IMG/VR virus record: IMGVR_UViG_3300045988_174698
DNA: 64,000 nt
Source of the DNA: a virus
Strand: one strand, 5' to 3'
Shown here: positions 80 through 32,975 of the stretch, piece after piece
Position numbering within the stretch: the first letter of the stretch is position 1
How the letters are laid out: each line of letters starts with the position of its first letter
The notes under the pieces: model-generated
What the model was told of the DNA's origin: nothing
The model's database searches: none
The model's input: the letters and a program-made list of their open reading frames with translations, nothing else
Made by a program: the position numbers and the translations under genes

Positions 80-1504
80 ATGAAAAATATTAAACCAGAT
101 ATTGATCTTCAAAATTCAATCGAACGTAGTAGGATTACTGAATCTAGAGAGTATTACAAAGGCAAGTCTTTTAATTTTGCTAAAGAATGGCACCCTGGAA
201 TAAATTATTTTAATGATAATTATATTACTGACTTTGTATCTTATAAAGGAACTTTATTAGTATGCCGTAGAACACATCTTTCTAGTAATAGTAACAGACC
301 TGAGCTACTATTTGAAGATCCAAAAGATTCAAATCAGCCAACTGGAGTAAAATCTGAATATTGAGATTTTATATTGGCTGGAACTCCAGGACCTGGAGGA
401 AAAGTATATATCCCTAACTATAATACATCTACTGGAGAACTTTCTTGAGTTATATCTGATAATATAGAAAGTATTGACCCTGTAAATATAAAAGGGGAGG
501 ACGGTAAAGATGGAAGAGATGGTAAAGATGGAAAGAATGGAACAAATGGAAAAGATGGTGATACTTATGTTCCACAATCAGAGCTTGATAATAACTACAT
601 AGTATTTAAATCTTTACAAGGAAAGGAAACTATTAAAGTAGATTGTAGTAACTTAAAGGGAGAACCTGGAGAGAGAGGTGAAAAGGGTAATGATTGAGTA
701 TTTAGTAAAGTTAATACTATAACATTATCCCCAAATGATAAGGGATATGCAGATATATCTGCAGATACTCCTGGAAGTGAATCAACAACTTATACTTTAA
801 CTTTAGGAATCCCTCAAGGAAAAACAGGTCTTAAGGGGAATAAGGGAGAAAAAGGAGAGAAAGGAGATCAAGGAGAAAAAGGAGAAGCGGGTCCTACCCC
901 TCTTTTTAAACTTATAAGGAATGAGAGTACAAGATCTATAGATTTATATTGATCTATTGATGAAGATTCAGACTGAGTGAATCTAGGAAGTGTTGGGGGA
1001 AAATCTCCAAAGCTATTAAGAGTTTTTGATGTTGCAGAACATCCCAATGTTCAAAATAGTACTAGACGAGATGATCGTATAGTATGGGGGTATGATGGAA
1101 TTTCTGTTAGTGAATGGACAACTCTATGTTATTTAGATGAACTTAGAGGAGATGAGAATATATGAATAAGTACTAAAGAAATTAAGCCAGGTGAAGGCAA
1201 TCCTCCAGTGATGGAAGTTAGAGACCCTAATAATCCTGAAGAGATAATACAAGTAGAAGATAAAGACAAAATATGATATGATCCATTTGATATTAGTTTA
1301 GATGAATTTAGTTCATTTGAATTTGTATTCAATGCTTATAAGGAGGCGGGGGGTCAATTAAGTGAGGATGCTTTTAGAAATACCTTTGCTAAAGTCGATT
1401 TATCTAGTTATTATACTAAAATTGAAGTAGATAAAATTAAACAAGATTTAGAAAAGTTAATCCAAGACACATCGTCTATGGTGTGAAACGATGTTATTAA
1501 TTAA
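80..1504 (+). CDS. tail fibre protein with collagen-like G-X-Y repeats (~474 aa; 7 in-frame TGA=Trp)
   Basis: ATG at 80 with TAA just upstream in frame. Track ORFs 80-364 and 977-1165 share a frame and the gap between them has no TAA/TAG. Gly-X-Y runs are present (GEDGKDGRDGKDGKNGTNGKDGD; GEPGERGEKG; GNKGEKGEKGDQGEKGEAGP). It ends at TAA 1502-1504. Confidence 0.7.
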
Positions 1505-2635: not shown

Positions 2636-3796
2636 ATGGCAGAATATTTTGGTAAAGGTATTTCGGTAGGTTCAGGTTTTGATTTAGGTGCGAATCTACC
2701 ATTAGATAACAGAACGATTCAAGCTACGGTAGCTGATCGTGATGCAATGCCAACAATTCAGTTGGTAGAAGGTCTTTTCGTTTATGTAAAAGAAAATAAG
2801 ACCGCATATATTCTTAAAGGATTTGATCCTGACGGATCTAATCGTGTTTGGGAAACTGTTGCTACAGGAAAAGTAGTTGATATTATTAATTCACTTGAAA
2901 GTGATAGAACAGATGCTGCTCTTTCTGCAGCACAAGGTAAGGCTTTAAAAACTCTTGTAGATGAACTGAAAGCTTCAGTCGCTGCAGCTCTTGACTATAA
3001 GGGTACTAAAGATACCTATGATGCACTTCCTTCAGAAGGAAATAAGAAAGGTGATGTTTGGAATGTAGTAGCTGCTCATGAGGGCACGCCTGCAGGTACA
3101 AATTATGCCTGGGATGGAGCTAAATGGGATCCTCTGGGAGGTACAGTAGATCTTTCAGGTTATTATACAAAGTCACAAGTAGATGATGCAATTTCTGCAG
3201 CAAAAACAGAGCTTAAGGCAGCGGATACAGCTTTAGAAGGACAGATTGCTACTGTTACTAATCAACTTAATAACAAAGTTGATAAAGTTGAAGGATCAGG
3301 TTTAATCTCAGATACAGATTTAAATCAAATTAGAACTAATAAATCTAATATCGAAAGTCTACAAACATCTGTTGGAGGTAAGCAAGAAGCTCTTACTGAG
3401 GGTCAAGCTGTTTCAATTACAGAGGAAAATGTTATTGATGTTAAGTTAGATCCAGCTTCAGATGCAGCCCTATCAAAATCAGCCGAAGGTCTTAAGTTAG
3501 ATCTTAGTGGAGTAAAAGGCTCAACCGTAAAGGTTGGAGTTGCTATTACTGGCGGTGCAGAAATTGGGGCAGATCAAACAATTGCTGCTGGTATGCAAGC
3601 TCTTAGTGATAGTATTAGAACCGCTGTTGCAGGTGGTATTACATCATTAACTAGCCCTGATGAGACTGTTACTGTTACAGGTACAGGTACTTCTAGAGGT
3701 TTAGCTGTAAATATATCTAAATTAGTGTCATCAAGTTCAGCTATCCAAATTGGAGAAGATAACAAGCTTGATTTGTATTGAATGGAAATTGAGTAA
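2636..3796 (+). CDS. tail fibre protein (~386 aa; ends LDLY-W-MEIE with one TGA=Trp)
   Basis: Track ORF 2636-3781 continues through TGA to TAA at about 3794-3796. It has coiled-coil/Ala-rich fibre-like composition. Confidence 0.65.
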
Positions 3797-3854
3797 ATAA
3801 CCTTTCCCACTCCCTCATGAAAATTAGAGGGGGGGGTAAATTTAAAAAAAAAAT

Positions 3855-4061
3855 ATGCAATTAAGTTTTCAAAAAATTACAACAGTTCCAACAAGTGATC
3901 TTGTAGCAGGTAGAATATATTTTGAAACATCAACAGGTATGATTAAAGTAGCAACAAGTGCTACTGATGTTGATAAATTTGGTGATGGTGTAAAATCTGC
4001 GAGTTGAGATGAGGGAGCCAAAACCTTAAAGATTGTAAATGAGAGTGGATATGAAATCTAA
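3855..4061 (+). CDS. 68-aa ORF encoding a fibre N-terminal anchor-like domain, terminated by an in-frame TAA
   Basis: ATG 3855. MQLSFQKITTVPTSDLVAGRIYFETSTGMIKV... parallels the N-terminus of gene 1515. One TGA=Trp. TAA at 4059-4061 lies in the same frame as the downstream fibre ORF. Confidence 0.5.
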
Positions 4062-5459
4062 TTAAATCTTTCAGATGTAGCCTCTGCTTCTGCAGTTACT
4101 ACAGAATTAGCAAAGAAATTAAGTTTAGGATCATCTGGAGATGCTGCAGGTACTCAAAGCTATTATGGTTTAAAGAAAGATATTTCTGCAGCACAGACAG
4201 CTGCTACAAATGCAGCAAAAACATATACAGATGGGGAAATTGCAAAAATTCCCGCAGCTATTGTTTATAAAGCAGATGGCACAACAATTACCCAGAGTGG
4301 AGATAGTACTGTTACTTTTACAGTTGGCACGATTGCTCAGAATAAAGTCACAGGATTAGAAAGTGCACTTGCTAGTAAGGCTTCCACAACAGATCTTAAT
4401 GCAGTAAAAGCTACAGCTGAGGCTGCTGCTCCTCAAGCTACAACATATACTAAAACTGAAGTAGATAATAAGGTATCTGCTGCAGTTGGAAGTGTATATA
4501 AAATGAAGGGTTCTGTAGATGACGCCACAGCTCTTCAAGCTTTAACAGGAGTAGCTATTGGTGATACATATAATGTAATTGCTGCAGGCTCTTTAAATGG
4601 AGAACCTTTTGAAGCAGGCTCAAATTTTGTAGCTATTAAAGCTGGTGCAGGTAATCAAGAAGGAATGTGGGATAAGCTAGGAGGAACCATTGACTTATCT
4701 GCTTATGCTAGAAGCGCAGATGTGGCTAATACTTACGCTACTAAAACTGCAGTAACTTCTGAAATTGCTACTAAAATCGGAACTTTAGACAAAGCTGATA
4801 CTGCTGTCGAAGGTCAGGTTGTTTCTGCAGTTTCTGAAACTGATGGTATTATTACTGTTTCTCGTAGAGCACTTGTAGCAGGCGATATTCCTACTTTAGC
4901 TACTTCTAAAATCTCAGGACTTGATACTGCTCTTAATGGAAAGGTCCCAACTACAAGAACCGTTAATAGTAAATCACTATCAGCTGATGTAGTACTTGCT
5001 GGTACAGATATTCTAGTTGGAGGTGATGGAACATACAGCACTAATAATCTTCAGGAAGCTATTGAAGCTATTGATGGAAGAATTGTCCAGGCGGCTGCAT
5101 CTGGAGTACAGTCATTTGGTGGAAAAACTGGCGCTATTACTGTTAGAGGAGGACAAGCTGCTACTGCTCCTGCGGTTAATTTAACAATGTCAGACAATGA
5201 GCTCCAAGCTGCTGTTATTGGGGTTGCTACCGCTGCACAAGGTGCTAAAGCTGATACGGCTCTTCAGAGTTCCAGTATTACTTCTGGTTCAGTTAATGGT
5301 ACAATTGCTGTCAAAGGATCTAATGTATTTGTCAAAGGTCTAGGCTCCTCAGCATATACTGAAACCTCTGCATTTGACGCTGCTGGTTCCGCAGATTCTG
5401 CTCTTAAGTCTGCAAAAGAGTATGCTGATAATCTAATGGTATGGGCTGAATTTAATTAA
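4062..5459 (+). CDS. tail fibre distal portion; open in frame from 4062 but first ATG only at 4503 (possible readthrough or pseudogene)
   Basis: The same frame as 3855-4061 stays open from 4062 to TAA 5457-5459. It has Ala/Thr-rich fibre composition with no ATG/GTG/TTG in frame before 4503. Confidence 0.5.
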   Translation, partial: LNLSDVASASAVTTELAKKLSLGSSGDAAGTQSYYGLKKDISAAQTAATNAAKTYTDGEIAKIPAAIVYKADGTTITQSGDSTVTFTVGTIAQNKVTGLESALASKASTTDLNAVKATAEAAAPQATTYTKTEVDNKVSAAVGSVYKMKGSVDDATALQALTGVAIGDTYNVIAAGSLNGEPFEAGSNFVAIKAGAGNQEGMWDKLGGTIDLSAYARSADVANTYATKTAVTSEIATKIGTLDKADTAVEGQVVSAVSETDGIITVSRRALVAGDIPTLATSKISGLDTALNGKVPTTRTVNSKSLSADVVLAGTDILVGGDGTYSTNNLQEAIEAIDGRIVQAAASGVQSFGGKTGAITVRGGQAATAPAVNLTMSDNELQAAVIGVATAAQGAKADTALQSSSITSGSVNGTIAVKGSNVFVKGLGSSAYTETSAFDAAGSADSALKSAKEYADNLMVWAEFN

Positions 5460-5466
5460 TAATAAC

Positions 5467-5505
5467 TGGGGATAGAGACTGTATCCCTGTCCCCTTCTTT
5501 TTTTA
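5467..5505 (+). terminator. rho-independent terminator candidate
   Basis: The hairpin GGGGATAGAGACTGTATCCCTGTCCCC is followed by a T-run immediately after the fibre stop. Confidence 0.5.
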
Positions 5506-5517
5506 TACTAGTATATT

Positions 5518-8500
5518 ATGGCAATTAGAAATAAATTTATCCATTTTAAAACTAGGGCTGCATTTAATTCATATTTAGAAACACATGCGGACGATTTATA
5601 TAATTATACAACTTTTATAAAAGAAACAAAAGAAATTTATACTCATGGACAATTTTATAAGTCTAGTAATAAATGGGCTATTTCAAGCCTAACAGGCAAC
5701 TCTGACTATGCAACATTAGCTTATAATAATGGTAAGGTTGGGGATATATTTGACATGTCCTCTGGGACTACTGTTCATGGTATATTAGGTACAATTAATG
5801 ATAAGAAATGATATATATTCTATAAAGATTCTATTAGAGAATATATATATAATACAGATACAAAAAAATTTACAGCAGGAGCTACAATTAATCTTGCTAA
5901 TGACTCTGAAATTCCAGATCCTGCTACTGTGGCTCCTAAAATGGATGGTACAGCTGCTGTAGGATCATCTAATAAATATGCACGTGAAGACCATGTGCAT
6001 CCTTCAGATAATACCAAACAGGATACTCTTGTTAGTGGAGAATCAATTAGAACAATTAACAATCTTTCTTTATTAGGGGAAGGTAATATTAATGTAGGCG
6101 ATGTTCCTTCTATTACAGTAGAACATGAGCAAATACCAAATGAGACAGATTTTAATAGAGTTGCAGAAGCTGCGGCAAATAATAGAGCTGTTTTAATTAG
6201 AATTAAAACTACTGAAATGACGTTAACCTCTAATTATTGACAGTATACCTCTTCAGAATCTCAGAGAGGCTTTGTTGCTTATGCAACATATTTATCAGAA
6301 ACTAATAACATAACTCTGACGGCACATATTATAGAAAATCAACCAGTTATGGTAGAAACTTATGATAAAGAATTACAAGAAGAGTTAGTTTCTGGGACTA
6401 ATATTAAAACTATTAATGGTACTGCTATACTAGGATCAGGTAATATAGACACTCCAGATAGTAAGGTTACTAGTGCTGCTAATCACTATACTCCTGTTGG
6501 AGGAAGTGCTACATCTGGAACTATTATAAATTCTATTACTAAGGATGAGAAAGGACATATTATAGATATAGGGGTTGCTAATGGTATAGATGCTGGTAAA
6601 ATTACCTCGGGAGTTATTGATATTGAGAGATTGCCTAAGGGAGCACTGGAGCGTTTAGTAATAGTTGCAAATAAAGCAGCAAGACTAGCTTTAACCACTG
6701 AACAAGTACAAGAAGGCGATACTGTTAAAGAGAAAGATACAGGTCACATGTATTTTGTTATTGATTCTTCTAAATTAAATAGTGAAGATGGCTACTCTAT
6801 TTATACAGCAGGAGCAGCATCTAGTGTGCCGTGGTCGGGAGTGACAGGTAAACCTGATTTAGTTAACTCGGTTAAGTTAGTACTGCCAAGTTCCATATTC
6901 ATTAATTCTGAAAGTACACTTACAGGAAATGCAGAATTAGGATCATCTTTAAGTACACAAAACGCTAATACAGTATGAGCAGCTCCAAGTGGCACATCTG
7001 GGGTACCAACATTTAGGAAATTAACTTTCCTAGATATGAATACAGTAACGTCAGATGAATTTAACTATATACCACAGACATTTAAAGGAGGAAGGCTAGT
7101 AATTAATTATAAAAACTCTGCTGGGGGTCAAAATACTGACAACACTATAACAGAATACCAATTTGGAGATGGGGCCAGTAATCTTACATACATAACAGCA
7201 AAAGGTTTTAAAACTTCGGAAAATCATGGACACAGGGTACTATGTTCAAATGGGTCTTCCAAATTATTGTATGGACCATCAACTCCTGGAACAGCAGGAC
7301 AAGTATTAATTTCAAATGGGGGATCAGCTCCTGAATGGGGAAAAGTACCTATAACTAGTGTAGGAGGTCCTACTGTTGACACTGCAACTTCTAATACTGT
7401 ACCATATGGAATTACTTCATATATTGGGGAGTACCGTTCTGATAAATTAGCGTTTATAAAGAGCACTGATTTATATGGAGAAATGAGTAAAAACAACGGA
7501 GAATCATGAACTGAAGATCCTCAAGGAAGTAGTAGACTTATAAGTTTATTTACTTCACAAGATAATAAGTATGGTCTACAATTAATAGATACAGAAGATG
7601 TTAGCACAACCACTCAATATAGACTTACTATAAATAATAGTGACAGGTATTGTACTATTGATTGAATATATATATATGTGTCTACTAACGGCTCTGGTTA
7701 TAATTGCTTTATAGAAGCATATAATCCTAGTTCTGAATCTTGAGATATAATATCTCAGGATGCTGTTTTACAGGGGTGATCGGGACCTAATTTTAGAGCT
7801 TTGACATCTTCTATATATTATAACAATTCCCCAAGTACAGCTTCTCAATATTCGAAACTAAGGTTTACATTTTCAACTAAAAGTGTTAGTGAAAACCATG
7901 GCGGACAACTAACAGTCTATAGAATTTCTGGATATGGTACTTATGGCTGGAGAATGCCTAATAATACAGCTAAGGTGGGTCAAATATATTCTTGGGATAA
8001 TGCTCAAAATGTCTCTTTTCCAGGAAGTGTATCGGCTTGAAAATTTATCAGTAATGGGGGTACTAGTACTAATGTAACAATGGGAGATGGATCTCTAAAA
8101 GATCTTAAAACTAAACAACTAGTTGTAAACGGTACTATAAATAATTTTTATTCATCAGATAGTGTTGAGGTTAGACTTTACGCTCCTACTTCAGGTGGTA
8201 CTAGTGGGCAGATTCTTGTATCTAATGGTAATAATGCTCCTAACTGAGCATCCTTAGATAGTTTAGGATATCTACCATTAACAGGAGGTACAATTTCTGG
8301 AAGTTTAAGGGTTAGTGGTCACATTAATCCCGTAAACAATGGAGTTTCAAATATTGGAGAGAGTGGTAAGAAATTTAAGGACATATATGCTACTACTCTT
8401 CATGGAAATTTTAATGAATCTACAACATTTGCAGCACCCCATCCTAACCCAATATATATTGATAATACTAATAATAGTACTGATGGTGTTTATTTAGTAT

Positions 8501-10146
8501 TGAAGAATAAAGGAGTATATGTTTCTTCATTTGGAACTACTAATGAAACTACTAATTACATTGAGACCTTTATGTTACATAGAAAATCTGATCAATCTAA
8601 TAGCTATAAACTATCAATTAGAGATGACGGAAACGCTTATATACGAGGTAAAATAATAGCAACACAAGAATGGGTAACAAATAATATATCAGGATTAAGT
8701 ACTAATATTAGTAGTCAAGGTTCTGTAATTGCTTCACTTGGACAGTACTTAATTACAGGGGCAGATGCAAATGCAACTACTACTACAAGTACAGTAAAAA
8801 TTAAGTTAAAGCAAATAGGAAGATCCACAGCTACGAGTGCAAGTGCTTTTGGTTCTCCAAGTTTAGAATCATCTGGTGTAACTATTCCTGCTGCAACAAC
8901 AACTACAGCAGGAGTAATGACTGCTACTGATAAAAGTAATCTTAATACAGCTTATAGTTGAGGAAATCATGCTTCCGCAGGATATTTAAAGGGTATTCCA
9001 GAAGCAACCTCAGGCTCTTATGGAGGAATAAAAATAGGGTATCAAGCAGCTGATAAAAGTTATGCAGTACAATTAGATAGTAATGGTAAAGCTTATGTAA
9101 ATGTGCCTTGAGAAAAGGGAACTGGCACTATAACACAGATTAATGCAGGTCTTGGTATGAAACCAAAGCTAATAACTGGGAGGGGCACGTTAGATTTAAG
9201 TTTGAGATCTAGTACACAGATGTCACTAAGTTCTCAAAATGCTTCTACTGTATCTGGAAAAGTATATGCAGTTCAACTAGATAAAGATGGATATTTAGGT
9301 GTAAGTGTACCTTGAACAGATACAAATACAAACTATTATCCAACAACATTTACATGAACAAATGGAACCAGTAAAGGTCCAACAGGTTCACTAACTGGTA
9401 CTGGAATGAGTGCTGTTTCGTTTGGCTCTATACCTATAGCTAGTCTAAGTAATTCTGGTGTTATAACTACTGAAGCACAAGAAATAAGCGGCGAGAAATA
9501 CTTTAATAATGGAGTATTTGTTGGATTAAGCGGGAGTGTTAGTAGAGGTATTATAGACGGGAAGGCCTTTGGGTATGATGGACTAGCTATTGTTTCAGAT
9601 AGCAATGTGTATATAGCTCCAGATAACAATATTGTATATTTTGGATACGATGGGGATACATATATACAAGATGGAGTATTTAGTGGAACCGCTAGTAAGG
9701 CAAATATGGTTACAGGAGCATTAACTATACATAGTGGATCTACGAATATAACATATAATGGATCAAAGACAGAAGAGATTACAATTCCTAGAAATCGACA
9801 AACTAACCTAACTAGACAAGCATATGGGAGTGATTCGTCAATTTCTGTTAAAAAAGGTATATGTTATTATCATAACACAGGTTCACTATGGGCGACAAGT
9901 ATTAATCTATCTTTAAATACAGCTGACTGAAGTAGTATAGAAAGCACTAATGATACAGAGATAATTGAAACGTCTATGGTAGTAGTTGAAAGCGCATATC
10001 CTGTTACTTTTAGTTCAAACTCAATGTTAAAAGTGCAAAAAGATATTCCGTTAACTGGAGATGCAGGAACATATAGAGTTTATGTTTTTTCAAGAATAAC
10101 ACCAACTCTAGTTGCTGTAAACTGTGCTGTATATAAAGCTTCTTAA
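5518..10146 (+). CDS. giant tail fibre / receptor-binding protein (~1542 aa; ~16 in-frame TGA=Trp)
   Basis: Track ORFs 5518, 5929, 6349, 7036, 7801, 8500 and 9406 are all in frame 1. I read the gaps codon by codon (6241-6348, 7510-7800 and 9931-10146 with position checks) and found no TAA/TAG. It ends at TAA 10144-10146. Composition is fibre-like (S/T/G/N-rich) with repeated YxSTNGxT-type segments. Confidence 0.7.
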
Positions 10147-18582: not shown

Positions 18583-21500
18583 ATGAGAATTACAAGTTTT
18601 AGTTCTTCCCATGCTCAGATGGGTTCAACCAGAACTTATGAAGACTTTCATAAGTGGCTAGGTGATAAACCTGAGCGTTTAGGTATTGTATCTAATTTGT
18701 ATAAACAGTATACTGCAACAAGTCTTACTGAAGCACTGATGAATGTTTATACAATGGAAAAGGGCAAGCCTAGTAAATTTCAGTCTCTTAATTCATTCTT
18801 ACTTGAGTGGGAAATTGATGTTAATTTTGTTAAAAGAATTCCTATCCTTGCAGTTGAAGGAGATGGTTCGAATGGTTCTGAGGTTATTTTCCATTTCCCA
18901 GAGCGTTACTACGAGATGTATGACGTGTTTGTAATTGAAGAGACCCGCCAGCAATGTATGGTTATGCTGTCTCCAGTACGTCGTTCTGACGCGGTTGTAG
19001 AATATGTATGCCGTGTTATTGATAATGACTATAAGGAAGTACTTGATGTAGATAGTATTGTAGGTACTGACACTCGTTTTATTACGAATCATATGCCTGA
19101 ATTGCATGAAACAGGGTCGATATTAGTGGGCCCCACTATAATGCGAGTTATAGTTGAAAATTCTTTTAATTGCTGGAAACTCCTATAAAGTTGATACGTT
19201 TATAGGACAATCAGCAGCCAAGACTTAGATAAAGCAATCGCATAGCGAAGCTCTAAGTAAGGTTCAACGACTATCCCGAAAGGGAGTAGGGCAGAGATGT
19301 TCGAAATGGAGAAAATCTTATCAAAAAATGAAATATTTAGTATATTTAACTTACTGTATAACCAGTAAAAAATATTATATAGGTGTTCATATGACTAAAA
19401 ATCCAGAAGTTTGGGATTTTTATATTGGAAATGGAATATACACTAATAGGCCAGCTAGTTACAAAAAAGCTACAACTCCTCTAAAACGGGCTGTGTGTAA
19501 ATATGGAATAAATGCCTTTAGGAGAATAACATTAGCAGTTTTTGACACAAAAGAGGAAGCTTATAAATTAGAAGCGACTATTGTAAATGAATCTTTTGTA
19601 AGAGACCAAAACACCTATAATATAAAATTAGGAGGATCTGGTGGATGTCCAGAAATTCTAAAGAAGAAAGTGTATATGTACAATTCAAACGGAGATTTTG
19701 TTAAAGAGTTTAATACATTAAAAGAATGTATAGATGAAATAGCTCCGAATGCTCGTAATCAAAGTCATATATCTAGAGCAATTAAAAATGGATCTAGAGT
19801 TTATAATTATCAATTTTCTTATGAAAAAGTACCATTTATGAAGAAGTGAAAAACTGAAGTAAATAGTGCTAATTATTCAAATGCTCAGAGAAATAGAGAC
19901 ATGAGGAAAGTAGGAAAATATGATGATGACTGGAATTTAATAGAAGTATTTGAAAATACTGCAGAATTGCGGAAAGCTGGATATAGAAATGCTTATGCTG
20001 TATTAAAAGGAGTACGTGAACACTGTAATGGTTATAGATTTAAGTATATAGAATAAGATTAAGATATAGTCTACTCTTTATAGTAATATAAAGTATATAA
20101 GTCACTAAGTATCAATCAAACATCGAGAAGCATAGAACGATGATTGGGACAACTCGTTGTGATATTGATTATTCAGCTAAATATATGGCTTTGGAAGATC
20201 AGTTTATCAATATTGCAACAAAGGACAAAGATTTTACTTACAAGCTTTCTGGTGCAGAAAAAGTTTGTCTTGATAGCTATATGGCTGCTCGTAATAACAA
20301 GCTTTTATTCTCCAAAGGTAACTTTGATGTAAATGGTAAGACTACTATTTCTGATGAAATTGGTCGTCCTATTGTCACTACTGAGGGTAAGAGAATTTGC
20401 CCCTATGCTTAGTAATGAGCATGGAAATAAGCTCTTTAATTCAGGGAAAGCTGAGATGCCAATCCTGAGCGAAGCTAAATAGTAATATTTAGAACGTGCA
20501 ACGACTAGTTAAAGTAGTCCTATAAAGGATAAAATAACCACGAAAGGGAGCCATCCAGAAATGGATGAAGATATAGTCTGATCATATACGAAATCAAGTA
20601 TATGAAGTAGATGGTAAACTCATCTACGATAACAAAAATGATAATTCCTCAAATTGAACGCTTTGCAACGAAGTATGTATTTAATAAATTAACTACACGT
20701 ATCTTTGAAGGTGCTATGAATGAAATGGCTACTAAGTCAGATGAGCCCACAGGCAATTCTTGGGTATTTATTTGTAACACTAAAATGTGGCAATCTGTCC
20801 AGAGAACAATGGCTACATGGATTCGTGACTGGAAAACTACTGGTTGTTTCGTATGGTCACAAGGTGCTAAGGATTATGTTGACCTTGGTGCAACTTATCA
20901 GTCATATGAATTTGCGGGTAAATCTATCTTATTGCCCGCTGCAGCTTAGAGGCTGTATAAATAAAATTATTTAATTGCTGGAAACTCCTTATAGTTCTAT
21001 AAACTACAAAGTAATATGGAAATATAAACTTGAAAGTTTAAAAATTATAGAAATTGGACAATCAGCAGCGAAGCTCCTTAGTAAATATAATACATGGAGA
21101 ACGTTCAACGACTAGTAAGTCCTATTTAATAGGCATAGGTTAATATTAACCGAAATAATAATTATCTTATGGAATTAAAATATATTGTATATGTTACTGT
21201 TAACCTTTGTAATGGAAAATTATACTTTGGTGTACACAGAACAAATCCTGATATTTTTGATGGGTATATTGGTTGCGGTATTTATAGGCAGTCAAATGCT
21301 ATAAAAAAATATCCATTACACACAGCTGTTAAAAAATATGGGTATGATAACTTTAGAAGAACTATTATACAGATATTTCCAGACACAGATGAGGGTAAAA
21401 AACAAGCGTATGATTTAGAAGCTCAGCTTGTAAATACTACATTATTACGAAGTAAGAATGTATATAATTCAAAAGTTGGGGGAGAAGGTGGTTGTAATAT

Positions 21501-23720
21501 TGAACAAAAAAGAGTATATAAATATTCTTTAGATGGGGAGTTTTTACAATCGTATAAAAGTATAAATGAAGCGGCTTTAAGTTTAGTAACTAATTCTGAT
21601 CTTTATACTATTATAAAGAGTATTAGAAATAATTGTTTGGGATACTCATCTTCAGCATACAACTTCTTTTGAAGCTATAAAAAAGAATTTACTTATCATA
21701 GCAATAAAGTTCAAGTAGCTCAATACACTATTAGTGGTAAATTTATAAGACACTATAATAATATTACAGAAGCTGAACAAGAACTACAAATTAATACGAT
21801 CAAGCAGGCTATTAGTAAAAAGTGTTTAGCTGGTGGGTTTCAATGAAGAGTTTATAACAAAGATGATTCTGATATAAATAGCTATTATACAAATAGTATT
21901 AAAAACAATAGTACCCCAATAGTAATGATAAGTCTTGATGGTAAAATTACTAAGAATTATTCTTCAATAAATGAGTGCGCTATGGAAAATAATTTAAGTA
22001 GTTCTCAGATTAACAGAGTGTTAAAAAATATAATACGCAGTCATAAAGGATTTAAATTTAAATATATTTAACAAAGATAATGATATAGTCTGGTTTAATT
22101 AGAAATAATTAAAGTTAAGAATAAGATGATTTTCCGTCTTGATCGGTCATTAGACCTAGAGTTCCCTAAGAAGGCTTATGGTATATTCCTTGACCTGACT
22201 ACAGATTCAAATGGTACTCCTGGTATTATGATGTTTACTTTCCGTGGCGGAGATATTATCCACAATGTTATTAGAGGCGTAAAAAGAAATTATTCTGCCT
22301 GCGCCGCATAATAGTGATATTATGAAAAATAAAATTTCCTTAATTGCTGGAAACCTGTTAAATGGCAATCAGCAGCTAAGCGTTAGAATATGCAAGCGTA
22401 ATTACGAAGCTCTAACGAAAGTTCAACGACTAGTCTGGAAGACTTAGATTAAAAAATTAATCGAAATGGGAAATAACTTAAAAACAATAGTATATTTAAC
22501 AACTAATATAATTAATAAAAAGATATATGTTGGAGTTCATGATACTGAAACTCCAGAGATCTTTGATGGATACATTGGTAATGGAATTAATATTAATTAT
22601 CCATCTTCTAATAGACATCCCTCATGTCCGTTTCACTATGCTGTGAAAAAATATGGATTTGATAATTTTATAAGATCTACTATAAAGGTATTTGATAATA
22701 GAGAGGATGCTCTCAAATTAGAGAAATTAATAGTAGATGATAAATTTATAGCGAGAAAAGATACTTATAATATAGTAATTGGTGGGGGAGATCCTCCAAA
22801 AAATGCAATACCTGTATATCAATATGATTTAAATGGCACTTTTATAAGAAAATATAATTCTATTTTTGAGGCGAGCAAATTGGTTAATGGTGCTGCAGGT
22901 ATAAGATCTGCCATAAATTATAAAACTACTAGTGGAGGGTATTTATGGAGTGATATATATATAGAATCTTTAGATCCAAATATGTATTACATAGTAGATC
23001 AAAAAAAGGAAATATATTTATATCACACAAATGGAATTTTGTACAAGAAATTTAATTCAATATCTGAGACTTTAAAGGAATTAAAAGTTAGTCTCGGTCC
23101 AGTACAAAGAGCCATTATAACGAAAACAAAGATCAAAGGATATTATATTAGTGATACATTATTAGAAAAATTTATACCAATCAGATACAAAAAACATAAT
23201 ACTGGTGTATATCAGTATAGTTTGGATGGAGAGTATTTAAATTACTATAAGAGCTGTTTAGAAGTAGCAAGATTACTTGGAAAACAGTATAATAGTATAT
23301 CTCATTGTATACGACTTGGTAAACCGTGTGGTGGTTACCAGTGGTCTTGAGAAAAAGTAGAAAAAATGGCTCCTTACAAAGTTACAATAAAAACTAGAAA
23401 AGTTGGTCAGTTTACTTTAGATGGTAAATTGGTAAAAACATATAATACTGTTAGAGAGTGTAGAAAGGAATTTGGAAATGTAAGTAGAGTTTTAAAAGGA
23501 TTGGTTAATAAATGTAAAGGATATACTTTTAAATATATAGATTAAGTTAGTGATATAGTCTAATCTTATACGAAAGTGTAAGTCCACATGGGGTGGAAAA
23601 AGCGGACTTGAGTCTGGTGAAGTTTCGAGTCCAGTTGCTGGAGCCAAGATTGTTAACTGGGGCTATCATGGAGTAGGTGTGATGAATCCCTATCGTTCTG
23701 CAATCCTTGAAGAAGTTTAA
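18583..23720 (+). CDS. conserved virion gene (candidate major capsid protein, ~493 aa mature) interrupted by four group I introns
   Basis: Proposed exons are 18583-19142, 20136-20410, 20615-20946, ~22120-22309 and ~23593-23720. They sum to 1482 nt (494 codons). I chose the junctions from P1 U-G pairing, codon phase and a terminal G. Exon 5 reads ...GKSGLESGEVSSPVAGAKIVNWGYHGVGVMNPYRSAILEEV and ends at TAA 23718-23720. The capsid identity rests on position and size only. Confidence 0.5.
19143..20135 (+). mobile_element. group I self-splicing intron 1 with GIY-YIG homing endonuclease gene
   Basis: Core elements are P (TTAATTGCTGGAAAC, 19166), Q (CAATCAGCAGCC), R (GTTCAACGACTAT), and S (AAGATATAGTCT) near 20065. 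The P1 hairpin ACTATAAT-GCGA-GTTATAGT puts a U-G pair at the 5' splice site. The 3' end is set by phase and a terminal G (...GCATAG). Confidence 0.65.
19328..20056 (+). CDS. GIY-YIG homing endonuclease (intron-encoded, ~242 aa; 1 TGA=Trp)
   Basis: KYLVYLTYCITSKKYYIGVH...YIGNG...NIKLGG are GIY-YIG motifs. The C-terminal NUMOD-like modules end ...NGYRFKYIE. The track ORF 19328-19849 continues 69 codons through TGA. Confidence 0.8.
20411..20614 (+). mobile_element. ORF-less minimal group I intron 2 (~204 nt)
   Basis: Core elements are P-like AATTCAGGGAAAGC, Q-like CAATCCTGAGCG, R GTGCAACGACTAG and S GAAGATATAGTCTGA. P1 pairs exon ATGCTT with GAGCAT, giving a U-G pair at 20410. In-frame TAG/TAA/TGA sit at the intron start and an in-frame TAG at 20608-20610. 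Confidence 0.55.
20947..22119 (+). mobile_element. group I intron 3 with GIY-YIG homing endonuclease gene
   Basis: P1 is CAGCT-TAGA-GGCTG with a U-G pair at 20946. P is at 20975 (TTAATTGCTGGAAACTCC), followed by Q CAATCAGCAGCG, R GTTCAACGACTAG and S TGATATAGTCTGG near 22080. An in-frame TAA lies at 22096-22098. The 3' end is approximate (22119 or 22125). Confidence 0.65.
21169..22071 (+). CDS. GIY-YIG homing endonuclease (intron-encoded, ~300 aa; 2 TGA=Trp)
   Basis: KYIVYVTVNLCNGKLYFGVH...YIGCG carries the GIY-YIG motifs. Repeated NUMOD-like modules include AGGFQ-W-RVY with TGA at the Trp position. It ends ...KGFKFKYI at TAA 22069-22071. Confidence 0.8.
22310..23592 (+). mobile_element. group I intron 4 with GIY-YIG homing endonuclease gene
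   Basis: In-frame TAA-TAG-TGA lie at the 5' end. P is at 22340 (TTAATTGCTGGAAACC), followed by Q CAATCAGCAGCT, R GTTCAACGACTAG and S GTGATATAGTCTAATC near 23549. The 3' end is placed by phase and a terminal G (23592 or 23595). Boundaries are +/-10 nt. Confidence 0.55.
22466..23545 (+). CDS. GIY-YIG homing endonuclease (intron-encoded, ~359 aa; 1 TGA=Trp)
   Basis: TIVYLTTNIINKKIYVGVH...YIGNG carries the GIY-YIG motifs. Four tandem NUMOD-like modules include GGYLWSD (TGG) and GGYQWS-W-EK (TGA). It ends ...KGYTFKYID at TAA 23543-23545. Confidence 0.8.
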
Positions 23721-28787: not shown

Positions 28788-29324
28788 ATGATTAAAGAAC
28801 TTGATGATTACTTAGATATATTAGAAAATAAATATCCACATATTTCTAGATATGAGCTTAAAAGAGTTTTAGAACATGGATTTCATACTTTTTACACATT
28901 AAATAAAAAAGGAGCTGACCTTCAAATACATAATAAAGATTACACTGCTTATTGTGGTAAGATGTTTATAGATAATCATAAACGAGCACTATATAATAAT
29001 ATTAAAACTAGAATAAAACTACGATTAAAGTATAAGTATATTCAGGAAGAATATAATGGTATATACTATTTTGGTCTTAGTGAAGCAGAATGGGAGTTTT
29101 ATCAATCTCAGATAACCTCAAAAAGGCGTAATAAAATCAAATTTACTAATCTGAAATTGTATAAAATAAAAGAAGAATGTTTCCTAGATAAATCAAAGAA
29201 ACACTTTTTTATACTATATTATCCTATTGATGTAGGATGGTTATTTACAGAAGAAACAATAACAACAAGAAACTTTAAACATTTTGCAGATAGAGATGTT
29301 AAAGGTAAGATTGTTACAATATAA
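28788..29324 (+). CDS. hypothetical basic protein (~178 aa; alternative start 28749)
   Basis: Track ORF 28749-29324. ATG 28788 avoids overlap with the upstream gene. Confidence 0.45.
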   Translation: MIKELDDYLDILENKYPHISRYELKRVLEHGFHTFYTLNKKGADLQIHNKDYTAYCGKMFIDNHKRALYNNIKTRIKLRLKYKYIQEEYNGIYYFGLSEAEWEFYQSQITSKRRNKIKFTNLKLYKIKEECFLDKSKKHFFILYYPIDVGWLFTEETITTRNFKHFADRDVKGKIVTI

Positions 29325-29330
29325 ACAATT

Positions 29331-32300
29331 ATGGATACAAAACAAGCACAAATTAATGTTTTCACAGAAGGACTTAATACAGATTTACATCCATTAACTA
29401 CCCCCAATAATATTTTGACTGACTGTATCAATGGCACAGTTATTACTTATAATGGAAATGAATTTATATTACAAAACGATATGGGTAATTATAAGCTTGA
29501 AAAAGCTAAATTACCTTCAGATTATATACCAGTAGGGGTTAAGGAATATGGGGGGATTATTTATATTGTTTCCTATAATCCTATTGATAAATTATGTCAG
29601 ATTGGTTCATATCCTTCCCCTCAAACATTGTTTGATAATAGTGATGACAAAAAAAACGAGCAAGATTACTTAGGGATTGAAATGAAACCTTTAGATGTTA
29701 GTGATCTTAATGCCCTATTTAATGATGAAATACCAGATAGTATACCAAAATATACAAAGTTATCGGAGTTACAAACTCTTGTTATATTAATGAATCCCGA
29801 AAAGATGCAAGATTTGTATCTTAATCCTGGAGATAAATACTGATTAGAAAAAAATGGAGACGAGAGTAGTACTTGAAAATTTCAATTTAGAAAGTACTAT
29901 TCGTTAAATGAGGATAAAAAACTATATGATATAACTAATAGTGTTGAAGAAAAGAATATTCCTTATACAGATTCTTCAAGTATGTCAAATGTAACATGGT
30001 CTTGTCCAGGATGAATATGTGCAAAACCTGAGTTATATAACATAGACTATTTTAATTTATATATAACAGATCTAGACTATCCTCGTTTAATCATAAATGA
30101 TCAAAAGAAGAAAAAATCTAGTGGTTGTGTATCTTTCTCTATTCAAACACAGACTCAAATATATAATAAAGATGTAGCAGATAGAATTAGTACTGTTTAT
30201 AGTAATATAGTTGGATATAAGCTTATATATGAAGACTCAACTATTAATGATAATTATTGAAACCTTATAGATGTTCATAATCTAAAAAAAACTGAGTATG
30301 ATAATTTAACTATTATAGGGTTAGATGGAAAATCTGGGGAGTGTATTCCATTATTAGAAGAATGTAATGAGAATTATCAAGAAGTAAATTCATCTAATAA
30401 AGAAGTTGAATATTCTAAATTAAAACAAATTGTAATCAAAGCTATTCCATATATACAAGATACAAAAAATAGTGAAAATCTTGGTTATATTTTTGACCAG
30501 TATACAGTTGAGTATGTTATTGATATTGATGATCTGCTAGAATCAACTGATATACAAATATTTGATACTTATAAGTATTTAATTAATGATTCTCAAGTAA
30601 ATATTAATATGAGTATTTTTACTCCTGTTAATAATTTATCTTCACTTGATAGTATTAAATTAAAAATATACTCAGTAGAGGCAAATGATACTAAGAACGG
30701 ATTCAAAAAAGGAACTTGTGTATTAGATTACAATAAAGATTTAAATTTATGAGGACAAAATCTTATATCTCTGGAATTTGATGATAACTTTAAAAAGGAA
30801 AATATTTATATATTATCAATAGAATCCTCAGATATACTTATAAGAGAACAGATTCTCATTACTTCTGAATTAATGAATAGTTTTTATAATAGGTATAATC
30901 AATACCAACTTATTTCAGGAGATGAGTGAATTGAAGGATTAATAGAGCATTTACAAGTTAGAAGTTCAACATTCTCCTCCACTACGGAAGAGTATGAAGA
31001 AGACAACGGATATTTCTTTGAAAATTCAATAAAAAGTATATTTGATGATTTTTGTTTACAGCTTGATGAAGATACATTATTTAAAAATAAAAATATTAAT
31101 GATATACAAACAACGGAAAATAATCCAGCTAAAAAATATAGTGGTTATTTAAAAAGAAAAACAATTAAAGGTAAACTAAATAAAGGAACTATAGAATGTG
31201 ATCTAGATACTGGAGATAGTATATGGTCTGATATATCTTATAATACTAAGATAACAAATAATAAACTTGTATACAATACTACCCAAGGAGATAATAACTC
31301 AGAGCTAATAGTTTTTGATAATTCATGATCTGAAGACAATATTAGTATAAAGAATTTAGTAGCTGATGGAGTTCTAATAGACTGAGAAGGTAAAATTCCT
31401 GTCGTAACTGCTAATCGTCAGTATTTACTTGAAAGTATACCCTGATATTTCTATTCTTTTAATAACATAGGTAATGAAGACAATGCCGTAAGGTGGATAC
31501 CCAAAGAACCTACAAATAAAGAAAGTAATTTAGATGGGTGAAAAAAGCTTAAAGAATATTCTACTATTGGGAAATATAGTGAAAATACAGCAAAGTTAGG
31601 TATAGCTTTTTCTAAGTATAATGAGACTCTTAGATGCTCCTTGGCCATTATTAACTTTTCAACTAAAGGTGGTTTATATGATGGAGCATGATCTGAAGGA
31701 TCAGCATCATTATTTGAATATGATGCCAACAAAGAAAATAAAGTAACTCCAACTTTTAGATTTACAAAAAATGATGCAACTAGTAACAGTGTGGAATGGG
31801 TATGAGAGTCAAGTAGTAGTGGACCAGGAAAAGAAGATTGGCGTACATTACTTCCTATTATGACTAAAAAACTTCAAGGAGCACATTTACCTTTATTTGT
31901 TCCTATACTATTTAGGCTTCATGGAAATTATGATGGTCCTGCTCCTGCTGGTGTGGGTTTTGGCTGAAGATTTCCAGATTGTACTGTAGTAGAAGATACA
32001 AATTGAATCAGCTGTGGAATAGGAGTTCTCTATTACTCAGAGAATATAAAAAGTTTTGGAGTAGCTTTATTACAGCTAGTAACTCCAGATAGTGGTAGTG
32101 TCGGAAAGGGGAAGTATATAAACGGCGGAGACGTAGATAACTCCAGTTCAACATATACTACTTTAAACACCATTGGAAAAACATGATTTAATAATAATTA
32201 TATTGCATCAATATTATTAGCAGTTAGTCTACATATATATTCTCTAAAGAATCTAAAGACTAAAAATGTATATTTGTTAACAGAATCTATATCTAATTTA

Positions 32301-32975
32301 TCTACTTCTATAAATGATGTTTTTCTAGAATTTAATAGAGAAGATAGAGTTGTTGATATTCAATATAATAGAGTCTCTTTATTAGATGCTAAAATTGATA
32401 TTGATTTTGAAGAATCAGGAAAGTACTCTAATGTAAACTTAAAAAATTTAGGAAGAATAACAGACCAAAAAATTGTTAAATCTAATAGTGTAAAAGTTGA
32501 AAATATAGAATGATATACTTTAGATAGTATAAACAATATAAACTTTAATTATCAAAGTTTATTTAATTTTATTGACGAGTCAAGAAATAAAATATTAGAA
32601 TATAGTAATGTCGACCCAAGTTCATTATTATGTGATTTACCAACCACACGAGATAATCCATTGTATAATTTTGCTCACGCATTAACTGCAATGTTAAAAG
32701 TACATAATGCGTCTAGTAACAATAATAATATTTATAATGATATAATTTGCAATAAAGATTTTACTACAGATGATATAGGTGGTGATGTTGCTCCTGCAAT
32801 GAGAGATGGAACTATTGGTAACTCTATACTTCCAACTATATCTATAATAAATGAATCGGATAGAATAACTATTTTAGAACCGCCTGAAACAATGGGCAGT
32901 AATATTGATTCTTTAATGCAAGTTACTCAGGAATTTAAAGAGACTTACAAGAGTATAACAACAGACATAACATAA
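29331..32975 (+). CDS. giant virion-associated protein (~1214 aa; ~15 TGA=Trp), function unknown
   Basis: Track ORFs 29331, 32274 and 32661 are all in frame 0. My read-through shows regular TGAs (checked at 30012, 30258, 30750, 30927, 31326, 31383, 31443, 31539 and 31689) and no TAA/TAG. I could not verify frame continuity unambiguously around a GGGG run near 31797-31817. Confidence 0.5.

What the first reader, a model, noticed from the sequence alone, without database searches (positions are those of the whole stretch)
3855..4503. In-frame TAA splits a tail-fibre gene between its N-terminal anchor domain and the fibre shaft
ORF 3855-4061 encodes a 68-aa domain similar to the N-terminus of fibre gene 1515 (…GRIYFETSTGMIKV vs …DGIFFTTDTHKIMM). 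It ends at TAA 4059-4061. The same frame then continues open with fibre-like coding sequence for 147 codons without any ATG, GTG or TTG until ATG 4503. There are three possible explanations. The first is programmed TAA readthrough or suppression, which would be plausible in a phage that already manipulates termination. The second is a recent nonsense mutation, leaving a fibre pseudogene or a phase-variable fibre. The third is an assembly error.
Basis: seen in the sequence. Interest (0 to 1): 0.6.

Follow-up and report, generated by a model that had tools for sequence, protein, structure and literature searches.

The report
Natural knock-out allele of a phage tail-fibre gene
The in-frame TAA is a real single-base nonsense mutation (Ser codon TCA to TAA) that switches off one of several tail-fibre genes in a gut phage, and it is one of at least eight independent knock-outs of the same gene found in near-identical phages from different people, so it is a natural loss-of-function variant and not programmed read-through or an assembly error.

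Summary
ATG 3855 opens a frame that stops at TAA 4059-4061. The same frame then runs 147 codons with no ATG, GTG or TTG, up to ATG 4503, and ends at 5459. The phage reads TGA as Trp.

All 21 IMG/VR orthologues, 8 further metagenome loci and the 120 best protein clusters encode one uninterrupted protein of about 534-553 aa. Codon 69 is Ser (TCA/TCT) in 20 of the 21 and Phe in one. Near-identical strains mostly carry the intact gene: 60 contigs hold the commonest intact allele.

The window's allele (TCA>TAA, with GAG>TAT three codons upstream) occurs in at least 10-14 contigs. These come from independent samples and assemblers, so it is not an assembly error.

The same gene carries other independent lesions:
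- nonsense at Q2, Q6, W51, E53 and E63
- two frameshifts
- 3-kb deletions that make chimeric fibres

It has no synonymous differences at all, whereas neighbouring genes have 11 synonymous and no nonsense differences.

No ochre-suppressor tRNA, stimulatory RNA structure or Rfam element was found.

Verdict: this is a segregating loss-of-function allele of a dispensable fibre that evolves fast. Read-through is not supported. Interest is modest, and rests on the recurrent knock-outs rather than on the TAA.

The parts
3855..4061 (+). Truncated 5' part of the tail-fibre gene: 68 sense codons plus the TAA. It covers most of the N-terminal beta-rich domain.
   Evidence: It is called as a 68-aa product in independent contigs L027, L029, L030 and L036. 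The N-terminal domain is modelled at residues 4-73.
4005..4007 (+). In-frame TGA read as Trp (codon 51). It shows that the phage uses TGA as a sense codon.
   Evidence: TGG stands at the same codon in relatives L043-L048. TGA recoding holds across the window.
4050..4052 (+). Codon 66 is TAT (Tyr). The majority allele and all more distant orthologues have GAG, GAA or AAG here. This two-base change is linked to the TAA and may be the scar of an earlier GAG>TAG knock-out that reverted to Tyr.
   Evidence: The intact Y66/S69 allele exists (P0025, P0026, P0028, P0030). No TAG intermediate was found.
4059..4061 (+). The premature ochre stop (codon 69). It is TCA (Ser) in intact alleles of the same strain and TCA/TCT in 20 of 21 IMG/VR orthologues. 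The change is a single C>A at 4060.
4062..5459 (+). The rest of the fibre reading frame (codons 70-534 plus the TAA stop). It is still intact and identical to the functional allele, but has no canonical start before 4503.
   Evidence: There is 100% query coverage in 534-553-aa homologues. The central part matches tail-fibre or tail proteins of crAss-like phages and phrog_23008 'tail fiber protein'.
4503..5459 (+). Internal ATG ORF of 318 aa. It is the only part that could be translated on its own from a canonical start, and gene callers report it when the gene is broken. It starts at the best-folded domain of the model (residues 216-277).
3829..3853 (+). Poly-G tract (3829-3836) and poly-A tract (3844-3853) just upstream of the start codon. 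Their lengths differ between otherwise identical strains (6-11 G, 9-12 A).
4446..4468 (+). 23-nt repeat (encoding YTKTEVD) shared with 1412-1434 in gene 80-1504. It is the junction of natural 3-kb deletions that fuse that gene's N-terminal part to this fibre's C-terminal part.

Best explanation
The TAA at 4059-4061 is a genuine ochre nonsense mutation (Ser69 TCA>TAA) that segregates in a natural population. It lies in one of several tail-fibre genes of a TGA-recoded gut phage of about 168 kb, probably a Zeta crAss-like phage.

Inferred consequence: release factors end translation after 68 residues, inside the last strand of the N-terminal domain. The remaining 465 codons are then not made as part of a fibre. 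At most, an anchorless 318-aa fragment could start at ATG 4503. Virions would lack this fibre yet still propagate, because the phage carries at least five other fibre-like genes (80, 1515, 2636, 5518, 10158).

The allele is young and sits on a Y66 haplotype. It is one of at least eight independent lesions of the same gene in near-clonal genomes. With the complete lack of synonymous change, this points to selection on the presence, amount or kind of this receptor-binding fibre, and not to a translational recoding device.

Shown:
- the sequence itself
- the sense codon in all orthologues
- the allele frequencies
- independent recurrence of lesions
- absence of recoding signals in the parts examined

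Inferred:
- termination at the TAA
- loss of the fibre from the virion
- a selective advantage
For: Orthologues:
- 21 of 21 IMG/VR loci have a sense codon at this position, Ser in 20 and Phe in 1.
- 8 of 8 further metagenome loci are intact.
- The 120 best protein clusters are full length.

Same strain:
- 9 of 10 distinct places found through the neighbouring gene 1515 have the intact 534-aa gene, and 1 has the 68+318 split.
- The intact allele P0024 is on 60 contigs. The window allele is on 10 contigs (P0001) plus 4 (P0004).
- Identical TAT...TAA DNA occurs in L027, L029, L030, L036 and L060, from different samples and assemblers.

Other independent lesions:
- Q2 CAA>TAA
- Q6 CAA>TAA
- +1A frameshift in the A-run at codons 6-8
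- W51 TGA>TAA
- E53 GAG>TAG
- E63 GAG>TAG
- a frameshift near codon 126
- deletion chimeras

Variation:
- The gene has 0 synonymous changes against about 14 missense base changes, 6 nonsense sites and frameshifts. Neighbouring genes have 11 synonymous, 19 missense and 0 nonsense. Fisher p=0.0016, or 0.009 for missense only.
- All 6 nonsense sites lie in codons 1-69, although 56 codons in the detectable range 1-216 could become stops. (19/56)^6 is about 0.0015.

No recoding signals:
- no tRNA in the window
- no fold beyond shuffled controls after the stop, z=+0.6
- no Rfam match
Against: - Translation was not measured, so low-level read-through or reinitiation cannot be excluded.
- The downstream frame is perfectly intact. 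That would also be expected if it were still expressed, but the allele is too young for decay to be informative: only about 3 differences in 13 kb between carriers.
- About 62 kb of the phage genome, including most of its tRNA block, could not be read for this strain. An unusual suppressor therefore cannot be ruled out.
- Relatives carry an amber-suppressor tRNA(CUA), so the TAG alleles in other strains may be leaky. That tRNA would not read TAA.
- Broken alleles were partly found by a search that favours them, the 318-aa product. The ratio of nonsense to other changes is therefore inflated. The clustering of the nonsense sites and the missense-only Fisher test, with its zero synonymous count, do not depend on it.
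Confidence: 0.85

Rival explanations
1. The TAA is decoded at useful efficiency by programmed read-through or by an ochre-suppressor tRNA of the phage or its host. The full-length fibre is then still made, perhaps late in infection or in small amounts.
For: The phage already reads TGA as Trp. Relatives carry an amber-suppressor tRNA(CUA) and several tRNAs with abnormal anticodon loops. The downstream frame is intact. The allele persists in several human samples.
Against: - The stop is absent from every orthologue and from most members of the same strain.
- Other strains carry stops of both kinds at other codons, and frameshifts, which no read-through device explains.
- The context is TAA followed by T. 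From general knowledge this is a strong terminator in E. coli; it was not tested for this host.
- There is no stable structure after the stop and no Rfam element.
- No tRNA(UUA) was found in the window, in about 105 kb of flanks and relatives, or in relatives' tRNA arrays.
- Table 1 of PMC12386605 lists only TCA and CTA suppressors in 43 Zeta crAss-like genomes.
- TAA ends 34 of the 45 ORFs taken as genes in the window.
Confidence: 0.05
2. Sequencing or assembly error: the true sequence has TCA at 4059-4061.
For: Three G:C>T:A changes lie within 11 bases (4050, 4052, 4060) of an otherwise identical gene, a pattern that oxidative damage can produce.
Against: The same three changes occur together in at least 10-14 contigs from different samples, studies and assemblers: metaSPAdes 'NODE', MEGAHIT 'k127' and Logan. 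The intermediate haplotype, TAT with TCA, exists independently in 20 or more contigs.
Confidence: 0.02
3. Neutral decay: the fibre is simply unnecessary, and the TAA is one of many random lesions drifting in a gene under relaxed constraint. There is no selective advantage.
For: Many different lesions are tolerated and transmitted. The phage has several other fibre genes.
Against: - Under neutrality, 25-30% of substitutions should be synonymous and 2-3% nonsense. Observed: 0 synonymous out of about 20.
- The same missense changes recur on different backgrounds, and 19 of 27 raise positive charge.
- Nonsense sites are confined to the N-terminal domain.
- The gene is intact across hundreds of divergent relatives, so it is maintained in the long run.
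Confidence: 0.08

Closest known systems
Side tail fibre (stf) frameshift of laboratory phage lambda PaPa (Hendrix and Duda 1992; from my own knowledge, not checked here)
   Same: A simple point lesion inactivates an accessory tail-fibre gene. Relatives keep the gene intact, and the phage stays fully viable on its remaining fibres.
   Different: Here the lesion is an ochre nonsense codon and not a frameshift. It arose in the wild and not in the laboratory. It is one of many independent lesions of the same gene in circulating gut strains.
Excess nonsynonymous strain variation in tail-fibre genes of gut crAss-like phages (Siranosian et al., bioRxiv 10.1101/460113)
   Same: [quoted passage not shown] The fibre studied here shows the same excess: 0 synonymous changes against 14 or more missense.
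   Different: That study found nonsense variants under-represented genome-wide in p-crAssphage. Here nonsense and frameshift alleles of a single fibre gene recur and reach consensus level in several samples.
Stop-codon recoding in crAss-like and Zeta crAss-like phages (TGA>Trp, TAG>Gln, with suppressor tRNAs; PMC12386605, bioRxiv 10.1101/2021.08.26.457843)
   Same: The window is TGA-recoded, is from the human gut, has low G+C and belongs to a genome of about 168 kb. The contig of relative L017 has exactly the length (173,322 bp) of the opal-recoded Zeta phage c815351 in Table 1 of PMC12386605.
   Different: Recoding places the reassigned codon at conserved sense positions in many genes. The TAA here is a single site in one allele of one gene, and TAA is the main true stop of this phage.
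Programmed stop-codon read-through, for example the A1 protein of phage Qbeta (from my own knowledge)
   Same: An in-frame stop separates a short N-terminal product from a long C-terminal extension in a virion protein.
   Different: Qbeta's stop is UGA, is conserved, and the extension is essential. Here the stop is UAA, is not conserved, and is replaced by other lesions elsewhere in the gene.
Retroelement-driven (DGR) diversification of tail fibres in Zeta crAss-like phages (PMC12386605)
   Same: Rapid, targeted diversification of a receptor-binding fibre in the same phage group.
   Different: No template repeat of the region occurs in the window. The changes are not adenine-specific. They lie in the N-terminal domain and along the shaft, not in a C-terminal lectin fold, and they include stops, which these retroelements normally avoid.

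Membership tests
Programmed stop-codon read-through | The stop codon is conserved at the same position in related genomes | tested here: not met
   21 of 21 IMG/VR orthologues, 8 of 8 metagenome loci and most contigs of the same strain have a sense codon.
Programmed stop-codon read-through | A leaky stop context or a stimulatory RNA structure just downstream | tested here: not met
   The context is TAA-T. The fold of 4040-4160 is no better than shuffled controls, z=+0.60. No Rfam family matches 3500-5600 at E<=1.
Programmed stop-codon read-through | A read-through protein is actually made | not testable with these tools
   This needs proteomics or ribosome profiling.
Stop-codon reassignment (TAA as a sense codon) | The codon occurs in frame in many genes at conserved amino-acid positions | tested here: not met
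   With TAA and TAG as stops, + strand open frames already cover nearly the whole window. This is the only gene with a long start-less continuation. TAA ends 34 of the 45 ORFs taken as genes. The residues replaced by TAA or TAG in the various alleles are Gln, Trp, Glu and Ser, not one amino acid.
Stop-codon reassignment (TAA as a sense codon) | A cognate suppressor tRNA (anticodon UUA) | tested here: inconclusive
   None was found in the window, in about 105 kb of flanks and relatives, or in the partial tRNA arrays of relatives. The arrays hold tRNA(CUA) but no tRNA(UUA).
Natural loss-of-function allele of an accessory tail fibre (lambda stf type) | Orthologues and sister strains carry an intact gene, and the lesion is a simple mutation | tested here: met
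   TCA>TAA is a single C>A change at 4060. The intact allele is on 60 contigs.
Natural loss-of-function allele of an accessory tail fibre (lambda stf type) | Carriers of the lesion are viable and transmitted | tested here: met
   The same haplotype sits in contigs of up to 168 kb from several independent samples. Viability is inferred from this persistence.
Natural loss-of-function allele of an accessory tail fibre (lambda stf type) | The protein is a tail fibre, and other fibres are present | tested here: inconclusive
   Annotation evidence is weak but consistent: phrog_23008 'tail fiber protein' at E=5e-5, tblastn matches to tail-fibre or tail proteins of crAss-like phages, a UniRef name 'Tail fiber protein', and neighbours with Phage_fiber_rpt and collagen-like repeats. 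There is no structural or experimental proof.
Diversity-generating retroelement target | A template repeat nearly identical to the variable region, adenine-specific changes and a nearby reverse transcriptase | tested here: not met
   The window holds no repeat of 3855-4503 longer than 23 nt. The changes are G>T, G>A, C>A and C>T. The rest of the genome was not searched.
Phase variation by slippage in a simple repeat | The on/off change is caused by a length change of a repeat tract in or before the gene | tested here: not met
   The TAA is a base substitution. Slippage does occur in the same gene in other strains: A6>A7 at codons 6-8, a G-run near codon 126, and the poly-G and poly-A tracts upstream. 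The locus as a whole therefore has this behaviour, but the feature in question does not.
Zeta crAss-like phages (opal-recoded clade) | Genome of about 155-190 kb, TGA recoding in late genes, and relatedness of signature proteins | tested here: inconclusive
   Contigs of the strain are 164-172 kb and the phage is TGA-recoded. The L017 contig length equals that of c815351. The fibre's central domain matches crAss-like phages. No signature protein (capsid, portal, terminase) was placed in a tree, and PHROGs did not recognise the five other window proteins submitted with the three fibre-like proteins.

The most novel reading that the evidence does not exclude
The fibre gene is switched off and on again at the population level by point mutation. 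Nonsense codons arise repeatedly inside the N-terminal docking domain and are later repaired to new sense codons. Tyr66 (GAG>TAG>TAT) would be one such scar. Lys at codons 2 and 53 (Q2K, E53K) could in principle be others, but a direct single-base change explains each equally well.

Relatives carry an amber-suppressor tRNA(CUA). TAG alleles could therefore be leaky, conditional states and TAA alleles tight ones. That would give a graded, heritable control of which receptor-binding fibre occupies the baseplate. Deletion chimeras would offer a third state.
Probability: 0.12. Interest if true: 0.65.

Novelty: new member of a known kind. Interest (0 to 1): 0.35.

Why it matters
For annotation, the two ORFs 3855-4061 and 4503-5459 should be joined and flagged as one disrupted tail-fibre gene. 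They are not two genes and not a recoding site. TAA remains a true stop in this TGA-recoded phage.

For biology, the locus gives a ready-made natural allelic series of one receptor-binding fibre in an uncultured but widespread human-gut phage:
- intact alleles
- many charge-raising missense variants
- at least eight independent knock-outs
- domain-swap chimeras

If a host is ever found, these alleles say which fibre to test for host range. They also suggest that losing a fibre can be favoured in the gut.

Tried and rejected
- Nucleotide searches of GenBank phages with the locus and with a 4.3-kb gene found nothing. The strain and its group are absent from that collection.
- Pfam gave no domain for the fibre. 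A PDB sequence search gave nothing.
- The AlphaFold model was poor overall (mean pLDDT 48). I used it only for rough domain limits and ran no fold search on it.
- The proposed homology to the N-terminus of gene 1515 could not be confirmed.
- A retroelement (DGR) explanation was rejected: no template repeat and the wrong mutation spectrum.
- At first the stops seemed confined to codons 51-69. More alleles at codons 2 and 6-8 then appeared, so the claim is now 'within the N-terminal domain'.
- I considered CRISPR escape as a cause of clustered SNPs. I did not test it, because the collection scan needs exact patterns of unknown spacer boundaries. It would also not explain the frameshifts and deletions.
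- I walked along relatives' contigs with all 8 viral-collection scans to reach the tRNA block. This gave partial arrays only, with tRNA(CUA) but no tRNA(UUA) or tRNA(UCA).
- TAG-terminated genes are not followed by a back-up TAA more closely than TAA-terminated ones. The window therefore gives no sign of amber suppression.
Full report
**1. The observation**

The window has 31% G+C, and nearly all its genes lie on the + strand. Under the standard bacterial code the genes are fragmented. If only TAA and TAG are stops, + strand open frames of at least 100 aa total 20,436 aa, close to the 21,333-codon length of the window. The phage therefore reads TGA as a sense codon.

In the finding's gene, codon 51 is TGA here and TGG in relatives, which indicates Trp.

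With that code, the frame starting at ATG 3855 runs 68 codons to TAA 4059-4061. It then continues open for 465 more codons to TAA 5457-5459. The first ATG, GTG or TTG after the TAA is ATG 4503, 147 codons later. The coordinates and the description in the finding are correct. For every other gene-sized ORF in the window (those counted as genes), the first start lies within about 33 codons of the preceding in-frame stop.

**2. Orthologues**

A scan of IMG/VR with the joined protein returned 21 loci. Their match runs from residue 1 to 533 across the stop position, at 58-89% identity. All have a sense codon at that position: TCA or TCT (Ser) in 20 and TTT (Phe) in one. The closest of them read ...GGA GAG GAA ATC TCA TTA..., against ...GGA TAT GAA ATC TAA TTA... 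in the window.

A DNA-pattern scan of metagenome contigs gave 8 more loci, all intact. A protein search gave 1,873 relatives. The best 120 clusters are 483-610 aa, most of them 534-553 aa, and nearly all cover 100% of the query. The gene is therefore normally one ORF, and the TAA is a C>A change in a Ser codon.

**3. The same strain in other samples**

A look-up of the exact 318-aa product of 4503-5459 found it in 69 blocks of public assemblies. Three of the six distinct places returned (L027, L029, L030) have exactly the window's DNA, TAT at codon 66 and TAA at codon 69.

A look-up through the neighbouring gene 1515-2633 does not depend on the state of the fibre. It gave 10 distinct places: nine with an intact 534-aa gene and one with the 68+318 split.

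Exact-sequence counts:

| Allele | Contigs |
|---|---|
| Intact, E66/S69 (P0024) | 60 |
| Intact, Y66/S69 variants (the five listed among 15 of the cluster's 107 members) | 3+8+5+3+2 |
| Window's 68-aa product | 10 |
| Window allele called from Met29 | 4 more |

The carriers come from ENA and Logan assemblies of different runs, made with different assemblers. The allele is real, is transmitted, and is in the minority. Assembly error is excluded for the allele.

**4. More lesions in the same gene**

The other places found through the broken products carry different lesions on almost identical backgrounds:
- W51 TGA>TAA (L031)
- E53 GAG>TAG (L026)
- E63 GAG>TAG (L028)
- Q2 CAA>TAA (seven places)
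- Q6 CAA>TAA (L051)
- +1 A in the A-run at codons 6-8 (L054, L058)
- an extra -1 A on top of the window allele in a low-coverage contig (L060)
- a frameshift in the G-run near codon 126 (P0009)

There are also larger rearrangements:
- 781- and 755-aa chimeras join the N-terminal part of gene 80-1504 to the C-terminal 330 residues of the fibre. The junction is a shared 23-nt repeat (1412-1434 and 4446-4468), and genes 1515 and 2636 are deleted. The 781-aa form alone was read on at least 15 contigs.
- A 1,523-aa fusion joins the fibre to gene 5518.
- A 487-aa allele has an internal deletion.

The neighbouring genes are intact in all these loci.

**5. Pattern of variation**

Across 27 sequences of the gene from this strain group I found no synonymous difference. 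There are about 14 missense base changes, six nonsense sites and the frameshifts. In the same loci, genes 80, 1515 and 2636 and the first 2.8 kb of gene 5518 together have 11 synonymous, 19 missense and no nonsense differences.
- Fisher's test gives p=0.0016 for all substitutions.
- It gives p=0.009 when the nonsense sites, which my searches favoured, are left out.

Random single-base changes in this gene would be 25-30% synonymous and 2-3% nonsense.

All six nonsense sites lie in codons 2-69. Yet 56 codons in the range my searches could detect (1-216) can become TAA or TAG in one step, and only 19 of those lie in codons 1-69. The chance of that is about 0.0015.

Among 27 distinct missense variants in full-length alleles, 19 raise positive charge. 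Several recur on different backgrounds: E189K, D467N, G362R, G95R and Q321K/R.

Codon 66 needs two changes to go from GAG to TAT. One route passes through TAG, the very mutation seen at the GAG codons 53 and 63. Tyr66 may therefore be the scar of an earlier knock-out that reverted. The TAG intermediate itself was not found.

**6. Tests for recoding**

- The base after the stop is T.
- The 120 nt around and after the stop fold no better than shuffled sequence (z=+0.60).
- Rfam has no match in 3500-5600.
- The window has no tRNA gene.

I extended the search to 8.5 kb upstream and 8 kb downstream of the window in the same strain. I then walked along relatives' contigs. About 105 kb of contiguous genome holds no tRNA.

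The tRNA region was reached only in relatives. It holds ordinary tRNAs, some with abnormal anticodon loops. Three of the seven arrays read from the last scan hold a tRNA with anticodon CUA, an amber suppressor. None has anticodon UUA.

A published survey of 43 Zeta crAss-like genomes lists only TCA and CTA suppressors (PMC12386605, Table 1). TAA ends 34 of the 45 ORFs I took as genes in the window.

Nothing supports decoding of this TAA. An amber suppressor could make the TAG alleles of other strains leaky, but it would not read TAA.

**7. What the gene and the phage are**

Evidence that the gene encodes a tail fibre:
- The protein matches PHROG 23008 'tail fiber protein' weakly (E=5e-5).
- Its residues 159-307 match proteins annotated as tail fibre or tail protein in crAss-like phages.
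- One database names its C-terminal part 'Tail fiber protein'.
- Its neighbours carry fibre repeats and collagen-like repeats.

An AlphaFold model built on 33 homologues is poor overall (pLDDT 48). It shows a beta-rich N-terminal domain at residues 4-73 (pLDDT 55-76), a long low-confidence helical or coil region, and a confident domain at residues 216-277. Codon 69 lies in the last strand of the N-terminal domain. 'Between anchor and shaft' is therefore roughly right but not exact.

The claimed similarity to the N-terminus of gene 1515 is not significant.

Evidence on the phage group:
- Contigs of the strain are 164-172 kb.
- The phage is TGA-recoded and comes from the human gut.
- One relative's contig has exactly the length of the opal-recoded Zeta crAss-like phage c815351.

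I take membership in that group as likely but unproven.

**8. Conclusion**

The feature is a natural ochre nonsense allele of a tail-fibre gene. It most likely ends translation after 68 residues and removes this fibre from the virion. The phage remains viable because it has other fibres.

The recurrence of independent lesions, their restriction to the N-terminal domain, the absence of synonymous change and the recurrent charge-raising substitutions together indicate selection on this receptor-binding protein, including selection for its loss.

The assembly-error explanation is refuted. Programmed read-through is unsupported.

Termination at the TAA, loss of the fibre from the virion and the selective advantage are inferences. 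Read pile-ups, the full tRNA set of a carrier genome and proteomics would settle them.

Noticed in passing
window 3829-3853: The poly-G tract (8 G here, 6-11 in other assemblies) and the poly-A tract (10 A here, 9-12 elsewhere) just upstream of the fibre start codon vary in length between otherwise identical strains. With some G lengths an upstream ATG comes into frame and gene callers report 547-548-aa products. This could modulate expression, or it could be homopolymer assembly noise.
   Followed up: partly
window 1412-1434 and 4446-4468: A shared 23-nt repeat (encoding YTKxEVD) is the junction of natural ~3-kb deletions. They fuse the collagen-like gene 80-1504 to the C-terminal part of the fibre and remove genes 1515 and 2636. 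The 781- and 755-aa chimeras occur in 15 or more contigs.
   Followed up: yes
window 3855-5459 (population data, P0024-P0038): There are no synonymous differences among near-clonal strains. There are 27 distinct missense variants, of which 19 raise positive charge. Several recur on different backgrounds: E189K, D467N, G362R, G95R and Q321K/R.
   Followed up: partly
window 3855-10146 (P0005, P0007, P0003, P0006): Other structural alleles exist: a 1,523-aa fusion of the fibre's first ~415 residues to the distal part of gene 5518, and a 487-aa fibre with a 47-residue internal deletion. Gene 5518 also appears with products of 1,474, 1,295 and 1,547 aa in some contigs.
   Followed up: no
L062 18643-19149 (about 7 kb beyond the window's end, - strand): The phage encodes a homologue of bacterial translation initiation factor IF3 (Pfam IF3_N and IF3_C). 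It lies next to a deoxynucleotide monophosphate kinase gene.
   Followed up: no
window 60804-61553 and 62291-63238: There are two LAGLIDADG homing-endonuclease genes (Pfam hits on record). Two paralogous ORFs at 21169-22071 and 22466-23545 share a GIY-YIG-like N-terminus (my reading of the sequences, not tested). Mobile elements appear to be interspersed among the structural genes.
   Followed up: no
L132 4895-4975, L138 5773-5853, L139 7323-7403 (relatives' tRNA arrays): Three of the seven arrays read from the last scan hold a tRNA with anticodon CUA (an amber suppressor), although these phages recode TGA. No tRNA(UCA) was seen in the parts covered. Several loci also have 'tRNA-???' calls with abnormal anticodon loops, and L103 has one tmRNA-like call.
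   Followed up: partly
L065 1743-4309 (about 6-8 kb upstream of the window's start in a sister strain): A 736-aa gene of other strains is split into 392-aa and 345-aa ORFs, with a 350-nt gap, in one assembly. This may be another disrupted or interrupted structural gene.
   Followed up: no
window 28788-32975: A second pair of ORFs lies in the same frame, separated only by a TAA (29322-29324). Here an ATG follows two codons later (29331), so these are ordinary adjacent genes and not a split gene.
   Followed up: yes
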